From: a virus
Lineage: Duplodnaviria; Heunggongvirae; Uroviricota; Caudoviricetes
Strand: one strand, 5' to 3'
Virus record (IMG/VR): IMGVR_UViG_2529293223_000006
Location: 1 to 13,223 of that record
DNA length: 13,223 nucleotides
Positions 3,001 through 9,000 of this stretch are shown here, piece by piece. Each line of letters starts with the position of its first letter. The stretch's first letter is position 1. Made by a program: the position numbers.

Positions 3001-6000
3001 GTAATGTCTCGTTCAGTGTTTTTTCTGCATCACGCAGTGCGGCATTGCGTCGCAGTGCTGCAACATAGTGTTCCAGAGATGACTTCACCCAGGTTTTACG
3101 CCCGGTATCAGTAATCACCGGGGCAAGTTCTGGCATCTCATTGCACAACAGCACAGGATCAATCACGCCGGACACACGGGCCTGTCTGCAGATGCCTGTG
3201 TAGATATCCCGGTACGGTCGTACAGAAAAAACGTCCGCCGGTAGTGTGGCCAGAATATCCATCACTTCAGGATCTGCTCCGCGCAGAAAGAACGCGCCGA
3301 TGACAGCGCCTTCAAGGTCATCGTTACGCCATACTGGAGTTGTCATGCAGCCACACCTCTGATACGAGAACGGTAACTGGGCCAGTTAAACGACAACCAG
3401 TTGCGTCCCCCGTCTGTGATCCTGTCGGCAATTCGGGGACTGATGAACGCCCACAACTCTTCCGGTGAGAGGTTACTGATCAGAATGGTGGGCAAGATAC
3501 TTTCGTACCTGGCGTTGATAATTTCCTGCAAAATAGTCATTTCAGCCGCGCTGCCAAACTGAACGCCAACTTCGTTGAGGTAGCCTGAGTTTAACGGACA
3601 CTCCTTCCTGAAATAGAATGGCATCAGAAGGAGCTAATAATGAGCAGAAAAACCCAACGTTACTCTAAAGAGTTCAAAGCCGAAGCTGTCAGAACGGTTC
3701 TTGAAAATCAACTTTCCAGTGAAGGCGCTTCCCGATTATCCCTTCCTGAAGGCACTTTAGGACAATGGGTTACCGCCGCCAGAAAAGGGCTCGGTACTCC
3801 TGGTTCCCGCACGGTGGCTGAACTGGAATCTCAAATTCTGCAACTGCGTAAGGCGTTAAATGAAGCTCGCCTTGAGCGAGATATATTAAAAAAAGCAACA
3901 GCGTATTTTGCACAGGAGTCGCTGAAAAATACGCGTTAATCGAACAATGGCGACAACAATTTCCCATTGAAGCGATGTGTCAGGTATTTGGTGTATCCAG
4001 GAGCGGTTATTACAACCGGGTACAGCATGAACCCTCAGACAGAAAACAAAGTGATGAGCGGCTAAAACTGGAGATTAAGGTGGCACATATCCGCACTCGC
4101 GAAACATATGGAACCCGGCGGCTCCAGACGGAGCTGGCAGAGAATGGCATCATCGTTGGTCGTGACCGACTGGCACGTCTTCGTAAGGAGCTAAGGCTAC
4201 GCTGTAAGCAGAAACGCAAGTTCAGAGCGACTACGAACCCGAACCACAATCTGCCAGTTGCGCCAAATCTGCTGAACCAGACGTTCGCTCCTACAGCACC
4301 AAATCAGGTCTGGGTGGCGGACCTGACGTATGTTGCCACACAGGAGGGATGGTTGTACCTCGCTGGCATCAAAGATGTTTATACGTGCGAAATTGTCGGC
4401 TACGCCATGGGAGAGCGCATGACAAAAGAGCTGACAGGTAAAGCCCTGTTTATGGCGCTCAGGAGCCAGCGCCCACCTGCCGGGCTAATCCACCACTCTG
4501 ATCGAGGTTCACAGTACTGCGCATACGATTACCGGGTCATACAGGAGCAGTTTGGTCTGAAAACATCAATGTCGCGTAAAGGTAACTGTTACGACAACGC
4601 TCCGATGGAAAGCTTCTGGGGAACGCTGAAAAATGAGAGCCTGAGCCACTATCGTTTTAATAACCGGGATGAAGCCATCTCAGTAATACGGGAATACATT
4701 GAGATTTTCTACAATCGTCAGCGTCGTCACTCTCGTCTGGGGAATATCTCCCCGGCAGCCTTCAGGGAAAAATATCATCAGATGGCTGCTTAAAAAAAGA
4801 ACAAATAGTAGTGTCCGCTATTGCCAGTACACCTCAGAGAGATTGCCGCAATGGGGGCAACCATTGCCGGAATGGGGGTGGAATCAGAAATTGCGGCGAC
4901 GGGGATAAAGAATTTTATGCTGTCGCTGACAGCGGGGAATTCTGCCACCAAATCGCAGAAAAAAGCGCTTCGCCTGTTGCGCATTGACCCGAAAAAACTG
5001 GCGGCGGATATGCAGAAAGACGCCCGTGGGGCCATGCTGCACGTACTGGATTCTCTGGCGAAAGTGCCGAAAGAAAAACAGGCTGCTGTGCTTAATGCGC
5101 TGTTCGGGAAGGAATCTCTGGGAGCCATTGCGCCGCTGCTCACGAATCTGGATTTGTTGCGAACCAACTTTAATCGTGTGGCGGATGCGCAGCAGTATGG
5201 CGGCTCAATGCAGAAAGAATATGCCGCCCGTGCCGCGACGACGGAAAATCAGTTGTTGCTGCTGCAGAACCAGATCAATGCGATTTCTTCCACGCTGGGG
5301 GAAACCTTTTTGCCTTCAATTAATGAAGGCAAAAAAGCGATTGAGCCTTTTCTGGAAGAAGTGCGCACGTTTGTCAGAGAAAATCCTGAGGTCGTAAAAA
5401 CCATCGCGAAAACGGGGCTGGCACTGCTGACATTTGGTGTTGCCATTGGCTCGCTGTCGCGGATGGGAAAAATCCTTAGTGGCGTGATGAATATGACGCC
5501 GGCAAAGGGATTAATAGCGCTTCTCGTCGGTGGTGCATATCTCATAATTGATAACTGGGAAACCGTTGGACCGGTTATTAAAAATGTCTGGGAAGTCATT
5601 GATGGCACCGCCCGGGCTATGGGGGGATGGGAAACGATCCTTAAAGCAATCGCCATTTTTATGGCGACAAAGTGGGTCACCGATGTCACTAAATCAATCA
5701 GCATTGTGACGAAGGATATGCGCACACTCGGCAAGGTCACTGCCGCTACCGGATTGTTTGGTAAAGGCGGGGGCGTTATCGGAAAAGCCGGTGTATATGG
5801 GATGCTGGCTTCTATGATGTGGGAGCCCGTCGAAAATGCACTTGAATCAATTCTGCCTGAGGGCGATGTTAACTGGGCCAGGGATCATGGCATATATCTG
5901 GCCTCTGACTGGACCCCGTTTTTTAATCGAAAAAATTATGAGGAATACCAGGCATCCCTTAATCAGCCGCGTCAGTACAAACCGAATGTTCCTTTGCTTA

Positions 6001-9000
6001 ATCCGGCGATATCGTCTGTGGCAGCACGTGGTGAAATCAAAGTCACGTTTGACAATGCGCCACAGGGAATGCGCGTTATCGATTTGCCGAAAACAGGCGA
6101 TCCCTTTATGAAAATCACCCATGACGTTGGGTATTCACCTTTCAGGCGTTAATAATGGTGAGGTGTACTGGCAATAGCGGACACTACCATTTGTTCTTTT
6201 TTTAAGCAGCCATCTGATGATATTTTTCCCTGAAGGCTGCCGGGGAGATATTCCCCAGACGAGAGTGACGACGCTGACGATTGTAGAAAATCTCAATGTA
6301 TTCCCGTATTACTGAGATGGCTTCATCCCGGTTATTAAAACGATAGTGGCTCAGGCTCTCATTTTTCAGCGTTCCCCAGAAGCTTTCCATCGGAGCGTTG
6401 TCGTAACAGTTACCTTTACGCGACATTGATGTTTTCAGACCAAACTGCTCCTGTATGACCCGGTAATCGTATGCGCAGTACTGTGAGCCTCGATCAGAGT
6501 GGTGGATTAGCCCGGCAGGTGGGCGCTGGCTCCTGAGCGCCATAAACAGGGCTTTACCTGTCAGCTCTTTTGTCATGCGCTCTCCCATGGCGTAGCCGAC
6601 AATTTCGCACGTATAAACATCTTTGATGCCAGCGAGGTACAACCATCCCTCCTGTGTGGCAACATACGTCAGGTCCGCCACCCAGACCTGATTTGGTGCT
6701 GTAGGAGCGAACGTCTGGTTCAGCAGATTTGGCGCAACTGGCAGATTGTGGTTCGGGTTCGTAGTCGCTCTGAACTTGCGTTTCTGCTTACAGCGTAGCC
6801 TTAGCTCCTTACGAAGACGTGCCAGTCGGTCACGACCAACGATGATGCCATTCTCTGCCAGCTCCGTCTGGAGCCGCCGGGTTCCATATGTTTCGCGAGT
6901 GCGGATATGTGCCACCTTAATCTCCAGTTTTAGCCGCTCATCACTTTGTTTTCTGTCTGAGGGTTCATGCTGTACCCGGTTGTAATAACCGCTCCTGGAT
7001 ACACCAAATACCTGACACATCGCTTCAATGGGAAATTGTTGTCGCCATTGTTCGATTAACGCGTATTTTTCAGCGACTCCTGTGCAAAATACGCTGTTGC
7101 TTTTTTTAATATATCTCGCTCAAGGCGAGCTTCATTTAACGCCTTACGCAGTTGCAGAATTTCAGATTCCAGTTCAGCCACCGTGCGGGAACCAGGAGTA
7201 CCGAGCCCTTTTCTGGCGGCGGTAACCCATTGTCCTAAAGTGCCTTCAGGAAGGGATAATCGGGAAGCGCCTTCACTGGAAAGTTGATTTTCAAGAACCG
7301 TTCTGACAGCTTCGGCTTTGAACTCTTTAGAGTAACGTTGGGTTTTTCTGCTCATTATTAGCTCCTTCTGATGCCATTCTATTTCAGGAAGGAGTGTCCG
7401 TTAAACTCAGGCTACCTCATGATGTCACCTGGCTTTTTTCGGAAGACGGCAAAAACTGGTATGAAGAACAGAAGAACTTTGCCAGTGACACCATAAAAAT
7501 GGTTTACACCGGAGACGGGCGCGTGGTGTGGGTCGGTAAGGATGTGACAGGCATTGAACCCCGTAACGCCAGTGTTATTGAAGTTCCTGATATTACCGCC
7601 AACCGCCGCATTACCGCGCCGGGTTACTGGTTTTACCGCAATGATGAATTTGTCTTTGACTACAGACTCAAAGCGGAAGATGAGCGTGATGCCCTTCTGG
7701 CTCAGGTCAGTGCCCGGACAGGGGAATGGGAAGAAGACCTGCTGCTGGGGCTAATCAGCGACGAAGACCGGGAAAAACTGAAAGCGTACCGTATTTACGC
7801 GAAATCGCTGCAGGCGATGGATTTCAGCACCATCACTGATAAATCCTCATATAACGCCATTGAATGGTCCGTCTCTCCGGAAGGTTCTTCCTGATTTAAT
7901 TTATCGCGAGAAAAACTATGTCTGTAGTGATATCAGGTGCGCTGACTGATGGCGCAGGCATCCCCATGTCCGGATGCCAGATTATTCTGAAATCCCGTGT
8001 AAACACCTCAGAAGTGGTGATGCGTACTGTTGCTGATGTAGTGACCGGAAATAACGGTGAATATTCATTTGATGCACGGACTGGAAAATATGGTGTGTAT
8101 CTGAAACGGGACTGGCGCGACGAGTACTGTGTTGGCGACATTGCTGTATACGACGACTCAAAGCCCGGCACGCTGAATGACTTTCTGATTGCTCCTGATG
8201 AGGGCGACCTGAAGCCGGATGTCGTCAAACGCTTTGAGGAAATGGTGGCGCAGGCGCAGCAGAGTGCCGGGAGCGCAGCCGGAAACGCACAGCAGACAGC
8301 GCAGGATGTGGCGGCAGCCGCAGGTTATGCCCGCGCAGCAGAACAGGCCAAAAATGACATTGATGCTGCGCTGACCGGCACTCTGAAAACGGCTAACCAT
8401 CTGTCTGAAATCGCAGCAGCAGGCGAAAAGGCACAACAGAAGTCCCGGGATAGTCTGGGGCTGAAAAGTGCAGCCACGATGGAAGCACAGAGCGACATTT
8501 ACGACCGGACAAAAGGCCGTCTGGCGATACCCGGCGCATTCGGCTTTGGGCGTGCTTTTCTGTATGAAGATGTTATCCGTTTTGACGCTAAGGATGATTT
8601 CCTGGCCTGGGTAAGGAATGCGCTGCCAGGTGAATATTCCGTTGCTGCCCCCTACGACATCATCATACCCGACGCACTGTTTGAAGGGGTGCTCAGCATC
8701 CGGTGGACTGATGCACGCCCTGAGACAAGGGAACCGCGGCGCAGAGCCAAATCCCTTACTTTTTACGGCATTAACGGCCCCATTTATCACACCCGCTACT
8801 GCTACTGGCCCATATCCAGACTGACTGGCTGGGTGAAAATAAATATAACCACAGAAGATATTATTTACAGAATCGTGGCGAGCTCTGTCCGCAACAGATG
8901 GGGAGACCCTGACATTGGCGGGCTGATTATTGCTGCGTACCAGGGAGAAGCTGACGGTGATAAAGTCATCAGACTTGTCAGGGGGCAGTCATACAGAGGC

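What the first reader, a model, noticed from the sequence alone, without database searches (positions are those of the whole stretch)
3576..7419. Inverted pair of near-identical IS600-like elements bracketing a tape-measure fragment, with no target-site duplications
Two 1261-bp IS3-family copies sit inverted with their OrfB-side ends facing inward, enclosing 1322 bp that encode only the C-terminal part of a tape-measure protein. None of the four junctions shows a 3-4 bp direct repeat, and I could not recover one by assuming a simple inversion. Each IS truncates a gene on its outer side (the DnaC-like loader at 3575, the Tfa-like gene at 7420). This looks like the scar of IS-mediated deletions that removed most of the tail operon between tape measure and tail fibre, and the head/late region between replication and tail genes.
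Basis: seen in the sequence. Interest (0 to 1): 0.5.

Follow-up and report, generated by a model that had tools for sequence, protein, structure and literature searches.

The report
IS600 scars in decayed Shigella prophage
Two copies of the common Shigella insertion sequence IS600 sit head-to-head around a leftover piece of a phage tail gene in Shigella boydii; they mark where a dead prophage was cut down and reshuffled, which is ordinary for Shigella genomes.

Summary
Two 1261-bp IS3-family elements lie inverted at 3576-4836 and 6159-7419, differ at 3 bases, and have no 3-4 bp target duplication at any junction. They are IS600, of a 1261-bp subfamily (one codon lost in orfA) with at least 12 sampled copies in the source genome, Shigella boydii 5216-82.

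The right copy marks a simple collinear deletion of 6.1-6.9 kb, from 6 bp after the tape-measure stop to nt 72 of the tail-fibre-assembly gene. This is measured against intact phiP27-like prophages.

The left copy is not a simple deletion. The DnaC'/DnaB block is inverted relative to the tail genes. DnaB is itself cut by a Mu-like prophage. Beyond that prophage the block (rest of dnaB, RusA, Q, holin) ends at a third IS600, whose other flank is the 3' part of ygcN.

Un-inverting the block restores phiP27 gene order. In the same genome, ygcN and casA each carry one IS600 insertion whose two duplication halves now sit on different IS600 copies. This shows that recombination between IS600 copies swaps flanks there.

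The structure is a non-functional genomic scar of a well-known kind. Interest is low.

The parts
1..2179 (.). Left (repressor) end of a Mu-like transposable prophage. It holds the N-terminal part of MuA (1-915, minus strand), a Ner-like gene (917-1168, minus strand) and a c-type repressor (1332-1943, plus strand). The prophage end is at 2179.
   Evidence: the same 203-aa repressor lies next to MuA, MuB, Gam, GemA and Mor genes, at different chromosomal sites in other genomes; phrog_3037 repressor; junction mapped against intact dnaB.
2180..3346 (-). 5' part of a phage dnaB-like helicase gene, cut at 2179/2180 by the Mu-like prophage. The listed 413-aa ORF (2105-3346) takes its last 25 codons from Mu DNA.
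   Evidence: DnaB_C and DnaB domains; 97-99% identity to intact 463-466-aa genes starts at 2180; the remaining dnaB 3' part lies next to the Mu right end (Mom) on contig AFGE01000047.1 (L025 877 onward), with GGAT duplicated.
3343..3575 (-). C-terminal 76 codons of a DnaC-like helicase loader. The break falls after LLIID, about codon 216 of 292.
   Evidence: phrog_50; full-length relative; breakpoint mapped at L004 17663.
3576..4836 (+). IS600 copy b, of the 1261-bp subfamily. orfA is 3640-3939, the A7 slippery run is at 3888 and orfB ends at 4793. IRL is at 3576 and IRR at 4836. No target duplication (CGT versus GAG).
4837..6158 (+). 3' fragment of a phiP27-type tape-measure gene (codons 200-637, stop at 6150-6152) plus 6 bp of the intergenic spacer.
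   Evidence: phrog_17727; 97% identity to intact E. coli genes; maps to L016 20001-21322.
6159..7419 (-). IS600 copy c, of the 1261-bp subfamily. IRR is at 6159 and IRL at 7419. No target duplication (own-strand flanks TCA versus CCA). It marks a collinear 6.1-6.9 kb deletion.
7420..7894 (+). Tail-fibre-assembly (Caudo_TAP) gene lacking its first 71 nt.
   Evidence: window 7420 corresponds to L003 20001, inside the tfa gene at L003 19930-20475.
7918..9759 (+). Side-tail-fibre gene (7918-9186) and a shortened DUF4376 gene (9382-9759). This is the retained right end of the prophage tail module.

Best explanation
The two elements are copies of IS600 from a subfamily that multiplied in this Shigella boydii lineage. 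They lie in the wreck of a phiP27-like prophage and have no function of their own there.

Shown: the right copy (6159-7419) joins two collinear, co-oriented points of the tail module. The points are 6 bp past the tape-measure stop and nt 72 of tfa. So 6.1-6.9 kb of baseplate and fibre genes were lost at this IS.

Inferred: the loss came either from an IS-adjacent deletion or from recombination between two directly oriented IS600 copies. Either route leaves non-matching flanks.

Shown: the left copy (3576-4836) joins tape-measure codon 200 to an inverted DnaC'-DnaB block. This block was later split by a Mu-like prophage. It runs on through RusA, Q and holin to a third IS600 in inverted orientation, whose far flank is the 3' part of ygcN.

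Inferred: homologous recombination between inverted IS600 copies flipped this replication-lysis block. Un-flipping it gives the phiP27 order DnaC-DnaB-Q-holin-[about 12 kb lost]-TMP'-[6 kb lost]-Tfa'-Stf. On this reading all three fragments come from one prophage that suffered IS600-associated deletions plus an inversion. Target duplications are absent because their halves were separated by these events.
For: 1. IS600 identity and anatomy are established.
2. Breakpoints were mapped to the base against intact prophages in E. coli UMNF18, FDAARGOS_944 and phage phiP27. The right-hand flanks are collinear and co-oriented.
3. phiP27 carries homologues of all three fragments on one strand. Identities are 93% for DnaC/DnaB, about 90% for TMP and 87% for Tfa. 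In the window the replication genes are on the opposite strand.
4. The Mu right end, the dnaB 3' part, RusA, Q, holin and a third IS600 lie on contig AFGE01000047.1. The same arrangement appears in a second assembly.
5. The third IS600 differs from the left window copy at one base.
6. Flank swapping between IS600 copies is demonstrated in this genome. Joining ygcN-5'...GTG|IS with IS|GTG...ygcN-3', and casA-5'...ACG|IS with IS|ACG...casA-3', rebuilds intact E. coli genes when the 3 bp are counted once.
7. An IS600-adjacent collinear deletion of 254 bp exists at aldA-ydcF.
8. Only 1 of 13 sampled full-length IS600 copies in this genome keeps a 3-bp duplication. In an EIEC strain 3 of 3 do.
9. 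The structure differs at one base over window 1-8027 in a second, independent S. boydii assembly, where it lies on a 1.1-Mb contig.
10. Published work lists IS600 among five IS expanded in all Shigella and attributes deletions and rearrangements to homologous IS copies (PMC7373316).
Against: 1. The reciprocal junctions (DnaC 5' part|IS600 and TMP 5' part|IS600) were not found, so the inversion is inferred from gene order, not shown.
2. The closest DNA relatives of the DnaC/DnaB block (97-99%) lie in lambda-tailed prophages. The closest myovirus-tailed, ipaH-carrying prophage has a different replication module. The fragments could therefore come from two prophages.
3. The third IS600 is joined to ygcN, which in E. 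coli lies far from ssrA. Further large rearrangements are needed, and their order cannot be reconstructed.
4. For the right copy, adjacent deletion and two-copy recombination cannot be told apart.
Confidence: 0.8

Rival explanations
1. The fragments come from two different prophages: a lambdoid one supplying DnaC'-DnaB-Q-holin, and a phiP27-tailed one supplying TMP', Tfa' and Stf. Recombination between IS600 copies in the two prophages (a large inversion or translocation) brought them side by side. On this view no head or late region was ever deleted between them.
For: 1. The best DNA matches to the replication block (97-99%) lie in lambda-tailed prophages of EIEC.
2. The closest ipaH-carrying prophage with the phiP27-type tail lacks DnaC/DnaB.
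3. Long-range flank swapping between IS600 copies is shown in this genome.
Against: 1. phiP27 itself combines this replication module with this tail module.
2. The three fragments are immediate neighbours, and a single flip restores phage gene order.
3. Lambdoid modules are mosaic, so best-hit context is weak evidence.
Confidence: 0.35
2. The unit IS600-TMP'-IS600 is a composite transposon that moved as one piece into its present place.
For: 1. Two intact IS600 copies in inverted orientation flank a passenger segment.
Against: 1. The outer flanks carry no 3-bp duplication (CGT versus TGA).
2. DnaC and Tfa are not contiguous in any reference, so there is no single target site.
3. The passenger's right end and the right outer flank are collinear points of one tail operon.
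4. The unit was found in only one context, in two assemblies.
Confidence: 0.02
3. One intramolecular transposition event made the inverted pair in a single step. This would be a replicative or IS-dimer type event that duplicates the IS and inverts the DNA between donor and target.
For: 1. The geometry fits: inverted copies with the same (IRR) ends facing inward.
2. Both copies share the rare 3-bp orfA deletion.
Against: 1. Such an event would leave reverse-complementary 3-bp sequences, one inside one copy and one outside the other. These are absent (GAG versus TGA; CGT versus TGG).
2. The middle segment is co-oriented with the right flank, not inverted.
3. The 1261-bp subfamily has many copies in the genome, so the shared deletion does not make these two copies sisters.
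4. From established knowledge, IS3-family elements transpose by copy-out-paste-in through a circle.
Confidence: 0.03
4. The arrangement is an assembly artefact of a draft genome that joined contigs wrongly across 1.26-kb repeats.
For: 1. The source is a draft assembly.
2. Its right-hand continuation beyond about 9490 differs from a second assembly, within a 1.4-kb identical repeat.
Against: 1. A second, independent assembly (GCA_002968245.1) holds the same four junctions on a 1.1-Mb contig. It has one base difference over window 1-8027 and the same copy-specific SNPs at IS positions 257 and 1232.
Confidence: 0.03

Closest known systems
IS600 (IS3 family), one of the five insertion sequences expanded in all Shigella species
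   Same: 99.4-99.5% nucleotide identity to copies annotated as IS600. orfA (HTH) and orfB (DDE, rve) are linked by a -1 frameshift at an A7 run. The imperfect terminal inverted repeats end TG...CA. Relatives in the same and related genomes make 3-bp target duplications.
   Different: Both copies are 1261 bp rather than 1264 bp, because one codon of orfA is missing (GAT at IS positions 142-144). Neither copy retains a target duplication.
IS-mediated deletions and inversions by recombination between homologous IS copies in Shigella genomes (Hawkey et al. 2020, PMC7373316; Seferbekova et al. 2021, PMC8072062)
   Same: IS copies without target duplications sit at breakpoints of deletions and inversions. 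The duplication halves of single insertions (ygcN, casA) are found on different IS copies.
   Different: Nothing in kind. This is a specific locus in an S. boydii lineage, where three IS600 copies carve up one prophage region.
Stx2e phage phiP27 and phiP27-like prophages of E. coli (UMNF18, FDAARGOS_944)
   Same: Homologous DnaC/DnaB, tape-measure, Tfa, Stf and DUF4376 genes in the same relative order once the replication block is un-inverted.
   Different: Here only fragments remain. There are no head, sheath, tube or baseplate genes, the replication block is inverted, and a Mu-like prophage lies inside dnaB.
Composite transposons (for example Tn10 or Tn5 types, with inverted IS arms)
   Same: Two intact inverted IS copies flank a short passenger segment.
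   Different: No duplication flanks the unit, no single target site exists, the passenger is a gene fragment collinear with one outer flank, and the unit is seen in only one context.

Membership tests
IS3 family / IS600 | Length about 1.2-1.5 kb with imperfect terminal inverted repeats ending 5'-TG...CA-3' | tested here: met
   1261 bp. The ends read TGAGGTAGCC... and ...GTACACCTCA.
IS3 family / IS600 | orfA (HTH) and orfB (DDE integrase core) in the 0 and -1 frames, overlapping at a slippery A-run | tested here: met
   PF01527 in orfA; rve, rve_2, rve_3 and HTH_21 in orfB. The orfB frame is open from IS position 301 and spans the A7 run at position 313.
IS3 family / IS600 | Near-identity to reference IS600 | tested here: met
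   99.4-99.5% identity to copies that RefSeq annotates as 'IS3-like element IS600 family transposase'. ISfinder itself was not available.
IS3 family / IS600 | 3-bp target-site duplication at each insertion | tested here: not met
   It is absent at both window copies. It is present at 3 of 3 copies in EIEC locus L004, 2 of 3 in S. boydii locus L019 and 1 of 13 in strain 5216-82. The duplication is a mark of the insertion event, not of the element. Its absence is explained by later rearrangement.
Composite transposon | Target duplication flanking the whole IS-passenger-IS unit | tested here: not met
   The outer flanks are CGT and TGA.
Composite transposon | The same unit found in different genomic contexts | tested here: not met
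   Junction-specific ORFs occur only in two S. boydii assemblies and in the same context.
Invertible DNA switch | The segment is found in both orientations, with a dedicated site-specific recombinase | tested here: inconclusive
   Both available assemblies show the same orientation and the same copy-specific SNPs at IS positions 257 and 1232. No invertase gene lies nearby. Two genomes cannot exclude rare RecA-dependent flipping.
phiP27-like prophage (remnant) | Homologous replication, tape-measure and tail-fibre modules in phiP27 order | tested here: inconclusive
   All three modules are homologous at 87-93%. The order is restored only after un-inverting the DnaC'-holin block. A single-prophage origin is inferred, not shown.

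The most novel reading that the evidence does not exclude
The 1261-bp IS600 subfamily, which lacks one codon in the orfA DNA-binding region, might have altered transposition behaviour. It might insert without a 3-bp duplication or trigger adjacent deletions at high frequency. That would explain why 12 of 13 sampled IS600 copies in this genome (most of them subfamily copies) lack duplications, instead of all of these being products of later recombination.
Probability: 0.04. Interest if true: 0.4.

Novelty: already known. Interest (0 to 1): 0.12.

Why it matters
It matters little beyond this genome. It is a worked example of how IS600 copies dismantle and reshuffle a prophage in Shigella.

It has some practical use. 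It shows that missing target duplications are the rule, not an oddity, for IS600 in this S. boydii lineage. It shows that split duplication halves can be paired to reconstruct rearrangements. It also warns that gene order around ipaH islands in draft Shigella assemblies may reflect inversions or mis-joins across repeated tail-fibre genes.

Tried and rejected
1. Pairings of the four junction flanks for 3-4 bp repeats were tested: direct, after inverting the middle segment, and the mirror-image pairing of replicative intramolecular transposition. None matched.

2. The composite-transposon reading was rejected. There is no outer duplication and no single target site, and only one context is known.

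3. The reciprocal junctions were searched for and not found.
- A protein search with the tape-measure N-terminal 199 aa found only partial proteins from S. sonnei, S. flexneri and E. coli. The five that reach the breakpoint (two from S. flexneri, three from S. sonnei) run straight through it.
- A protein search with the DnaC N-terminal 216 aa gave no informative truncated form.
- Exact-pattern scans of genome contigs for the predicted DnaC-5'|IS600 junction, and for the observed junction as a positive control, both returned nothing. That collection therefore holds no genome of this lineage.

5. The idea that the two window copies are unique sisters because they share the 3-bp deletion was rejected. 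At least 12 sampled copies of the subfamily exist in the genome.

6. SfMu as the identity of the Mu-like prophage was not supported. The only phage-database matches are Yersinia phages vB_YpM_5 and vB_YpM_6, at 93% over 43% of the query.
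Full report
**Observation.** The repeat finder gives one inverted pair, 3576-4836 and 6159-7419. Each arm is 1261 nt and they are 1322 nt apart. A base-by-base comparison finds 3 mismatches, at IS positions 257, 933 and 1232. Identity stops exactly at both ends.

Each copy ends 5'-TGAGG...CCTCA-3'. Each carries orfA (PF01527) and orfB (rve, rve_2, rve_3, HTH_21). orfB lies in the -1 frame, open from IS position 301 across an A7 run at position 313 (window 3888). The orfB-side ends face inward.

The four junctions read ...CTTCGT|IS|GAGAGA... 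and ...TAATGG|IS(rc)|TGATGT.... No 3-4 bp repeat appears under three pairings: direct, after flipping the middle segment, and the mirror-image pairing that a replicative or IS-dimer intramolecular event would leave.

**What the pieces are.** Pfam and PHROG scans give the following map.

| Window coordinates | Strand | Content |
|---|---|---|
| 1332-1943 | + | phage repressor (phrog_3037) |
| 2105-3346 | - | DnaB-type helicase |
| 3346-3573 | - | last 76 codons of a DnaC-like loader |
| 4839-6149 | + | C-terminal part of a tape-measure protein (phrog_17727) |
| 7421-7891 | + | tail-fibre-assembly protein lacking its start |
| 7918-9186 | + | side tail fibre |
| 9382-9759 | + | DUF4376 gene |
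| 9939-11582 | - | IpaH E3 ligase |
| 11865-12533 | - | SAM methyltransferase |

Exact protein look-ups name the source as Shigella boydii 5216-82, contig AFGE01000028.1.

**The IS.** The copies are 99.4-99.5% identical to elements that RefSeq annotates as IS600 in an enteroinvasive E. coli. An alignment shows that both window copies lack three bases (GAT, IS positions 142-144). This removes one codon of orfA, so they are 1261 bp instead of 1264 bp.

This is not a private feature of the two copies. The same 99-aa OrfA variants are encoded at 12 sampled sites in strain 5216-82, counting the two window copies. Some of these sites recur in a second S. boydii assembly, GCA_002968245.1. It is a subfamily that multiplied in this lineage.

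**The right copy marks a plain deletion.** The tape-measure fragment is 97% identical to intact 637-codon genes in E. coli and about 90% identical to phage phiP27. Three intact relatives were read:
- phiP27;
- a prophage of E. coli UMNF18;
- an ipaHe-carrying prophage of E. coli FDAARGOS_944.

In all three the order is tape measure, DNA-circularisation protein, baseplate genes, tail fibre, Tfa, Stf, DUF4376, all on one strand. Window 6158 maps 6 bp after the tape-measure stop (L016 21322). Window 7420 maps to nt 72 of tfa (L003 20001).

Both flanks of the right copy are thus collinear and co-oriented points of one operon. Between them 6302 bp (UMNF18), 6.9 kb (FDAARGOS_944) or 6.1 kb (phiP27) are missing.

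**The left copy is not a plain deletion.** In phiP27, dnaC and dnaB lie upstream of the tail genes and on the same strand. The window's dnaC'/dnaB region is 93% identical to phiP27 but is aligned in reverse. So the left copy joins tape-measure codon 200 to an inverted replication block.

Similarity to intact dnaB starts only at 2180. Everything to the left is the repressor end of a Mu-like transposable prophage. The same repressor lies next to MuA, MuB, Gam, GemA and Mor genes in other genomes, where the prophage sits at quite different sites.

Looking up the left copy's OrfA variant brought in contig AFGE01000047.1 (L025) and its counterpart in the second assembly (L023). These hold, in order:
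- the Mu right end (Com, Mom);
- the missing 3' part of dnaB;
- an 85-aa gene, RusA and Q;
- another IS and a tRNA cluster;
- holin;
- a third IS600;
- the 3' part of the chromosomal gene ygcN.

The two dnaB junctions share GGAT, four bases of the expected five-base duplication, so the Mu-like prophage is a simple insertion. The third IS600 differs from the left window copy at one base and is inverted relative to it. The orfA-side ends of both face the block.

Flipping the block between these two copies gives DnaC'-DnaB-RusA-Q-holin | IS600 | TMP' | IS600 | Tfa'-Stf. That is phiP27 order, with about 12 kb (lysis, packaging, head, sheath, tube) missing at the first IS and 6 kb missing at the second.

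The inversion is inferred from gene order. I did not find the reciprocal junctions.

**Why the duplications are missing.** I tabulated the flanks of every IS600 copy in the fetched loci.

| Genome (locus) | Full copies with a 3-bp duplication |
|---|---|
| Enteroinvasive E. coli (L004) | 3 of 3 |
| S. boydii CP026877.1 (L019) | 2 of 3 |
| S. boydii 5216-82 | 1 of 13 |

Two cases in strain 5216-82 explain the deficit directly.
- **ygcN.** Its 5' part ends ...TCTGTG at one IS600 (L034). Its 3' part begins GTGGCG... at the third IS600 (L025). Joined with GTG counted once, the two give a 300-bp sequence that matches intact E. coli ygcN at 100% in one ungapped piece.
- **casA.** The same holds with ACG (L033 and L032).

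Single insertions have therefore had their two sides carried apart by exchange between IS600 copies. One of the exchanged copies bounds the very block that the window's left copy bounds.

A third case is aldA|IS600|ydcF. It has collinear flanks with 254 bp missing and no duplication. This is the small-scale counterpart of the right window copy.

These junctions are also present in the independent assembly (L023, L030), so they are not artefacts of the draft.

**Robustness.** The second assembly carries the whole structure on a 1.1-Mb contig: Mu end, dnaB', dnaC', IS600, TMP', IS600 and tfa'. It has a single base difference over window 1-8027. The same copy-specific bases occur at IS positions 257 and 1232, and the middle segment has the same orientation. 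There is no sign of flipping of the 1.3-kb segment, although two genomes are a thin sample.

**Rivals.**
- **Two prophages.** The replication block and the tail fragments could come from two different prophages brought together by recombination between IS600 copies. The nearest DNA relatives of the replication block sit in lambda-tailed prophages. The nearest ipaH-carrying prophage with this tail has another replication module. Against this, phiP27 combines both modules, and a single flip restores phage order. I put this rival at about one in three.
- **Composite transposon.** Excluded by the outer flanks, by the collinearity of the passenger with the right flank, and by the single context.
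- **One-step intramolecular transposition.** Excluded by the junction sequences and by the orientation of the middle segment.
- **Assembly error.** Made unlikely by the second assembly.

**Comparison with what is known.** IS600 is one of the five insertion sequences that expanded in all Shigella species. Deletions and rearrangements between homologous IS copies are a stated hallmark of these genomes (PMC7373316; see also the abstract of PMC8072062). Chromosomal ipaH genes are often surrounded by prophages and pseudogenes (PMC9046306).

The finding is a clear and rather neat instance of this, not a new kind of element or mechanism. The most novel reading left open is that the one-codon orfA variant changes transposition outcome. 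The demonstrated flank swaps make that unnecessary, and I give it about 4%.

**Verdict.** The structure is a non-functional scar of a known kind. Interest is 0.12.

Noticed in passing
window 1-2179; L025 about 1-876; L006-L013: A Mu-like transposable prophage (c repressor, Ner, MuA, MuB, Gam, GemA, Mor, Com, Mom) is inserted in the remnant dnaB gene, with GGAT duplicated at the two junctions. The same prophage sits at other sites in other genomes (the norV-hypF region, a type VI secretion cluster). Its end is not SfMu-like in the phage collection. The only matches are Yersinia phages vB_YpM_5 and vB_YpM_6, at 93% over 43% of the query.
   Followed up: partly
window about 8095-9491, and onward to 13223; L008 and L020: The second S. 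boydii assembly has two inverted copies of the Stf-DUF4376 region about 490 kb apart. One follows tfa' and abuts ssrA-smpB. The other precedes ipaHe-dinI-btsS. The window follows the first copy up to at least 8027 and the second from 9492 at the latest, switching inside a 1.4-kb stretch that is identical in both. Strain 5216-82 therefore either carries an inversion of about 490 kb between these repeats or its draft contig is mis-joined there.
   Followed up: partly
L022-L036 (S. boydii 5216-82 contigs): Only 1 of 13 sampled full-length IS600 copies keeps a 3-bp target duplication. The duplication halves of single insertions in ygcN (GTG) and casA (ACG) lie on different IS600 copies. At aldA|IS600|ydcF, 254 bp are missing.
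   Followed up: yes
L034 5930-5936 and 7198-7204: The two flanks of this IS600 copy read GTCTGTG and GTCTGTC, a 6-of-7 direct repeat, although the flanks belong to unrelated loci (ygcN 5' part and a VasL-like fragment). This may be chance or microhomology.
   Followed up: no
window 9382-9759: The DUF4376 gene is called as 125 aa here, against 207 aa in the otherwise 99.5% identical copy of the second assembly. One difference lies near 9250. This is probably a pseudogene-forming point change.
   Followed up: no
L017 (S. sonnei, SRR7266758): A related phiP27-type tail module in S. sonnei has an IS600 end directly upstream of the sheath gene. Its tape-measure gene is intact across the breakpoint seen here. 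The same prophage type has therefore decayed independently in another Shigella lineage.
   Followed up: partly
window 1283-1320: A 25-nt imperfect palindrome centred on GAATTC lies in the intergenic region between the Ner-like gene and the repressor gene of the Mu-like prophage. It is a plausible operator.
   Followed up: no
window 11844-11874 and 12893-12923: A 31-nt direct repeat (81% identical) brackets the methyltransferase gene and the partial tfa fragment downstream of ipaHe.
   Followed up: no
L018, L019, L020 (other S. boydii genomes, btsS locus): At the mlrA-btsS site these genomes keep only an integrase fragment, an excisionase-like gene, an IS600 and then tfa (from window-equivalent 7780), Stf, DUF4376 and ipaHe. 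A different IS600 copy, also without a duplication (CTG versus GAA), marks loss of nearly the whole prophage there.
   Followed up: partly
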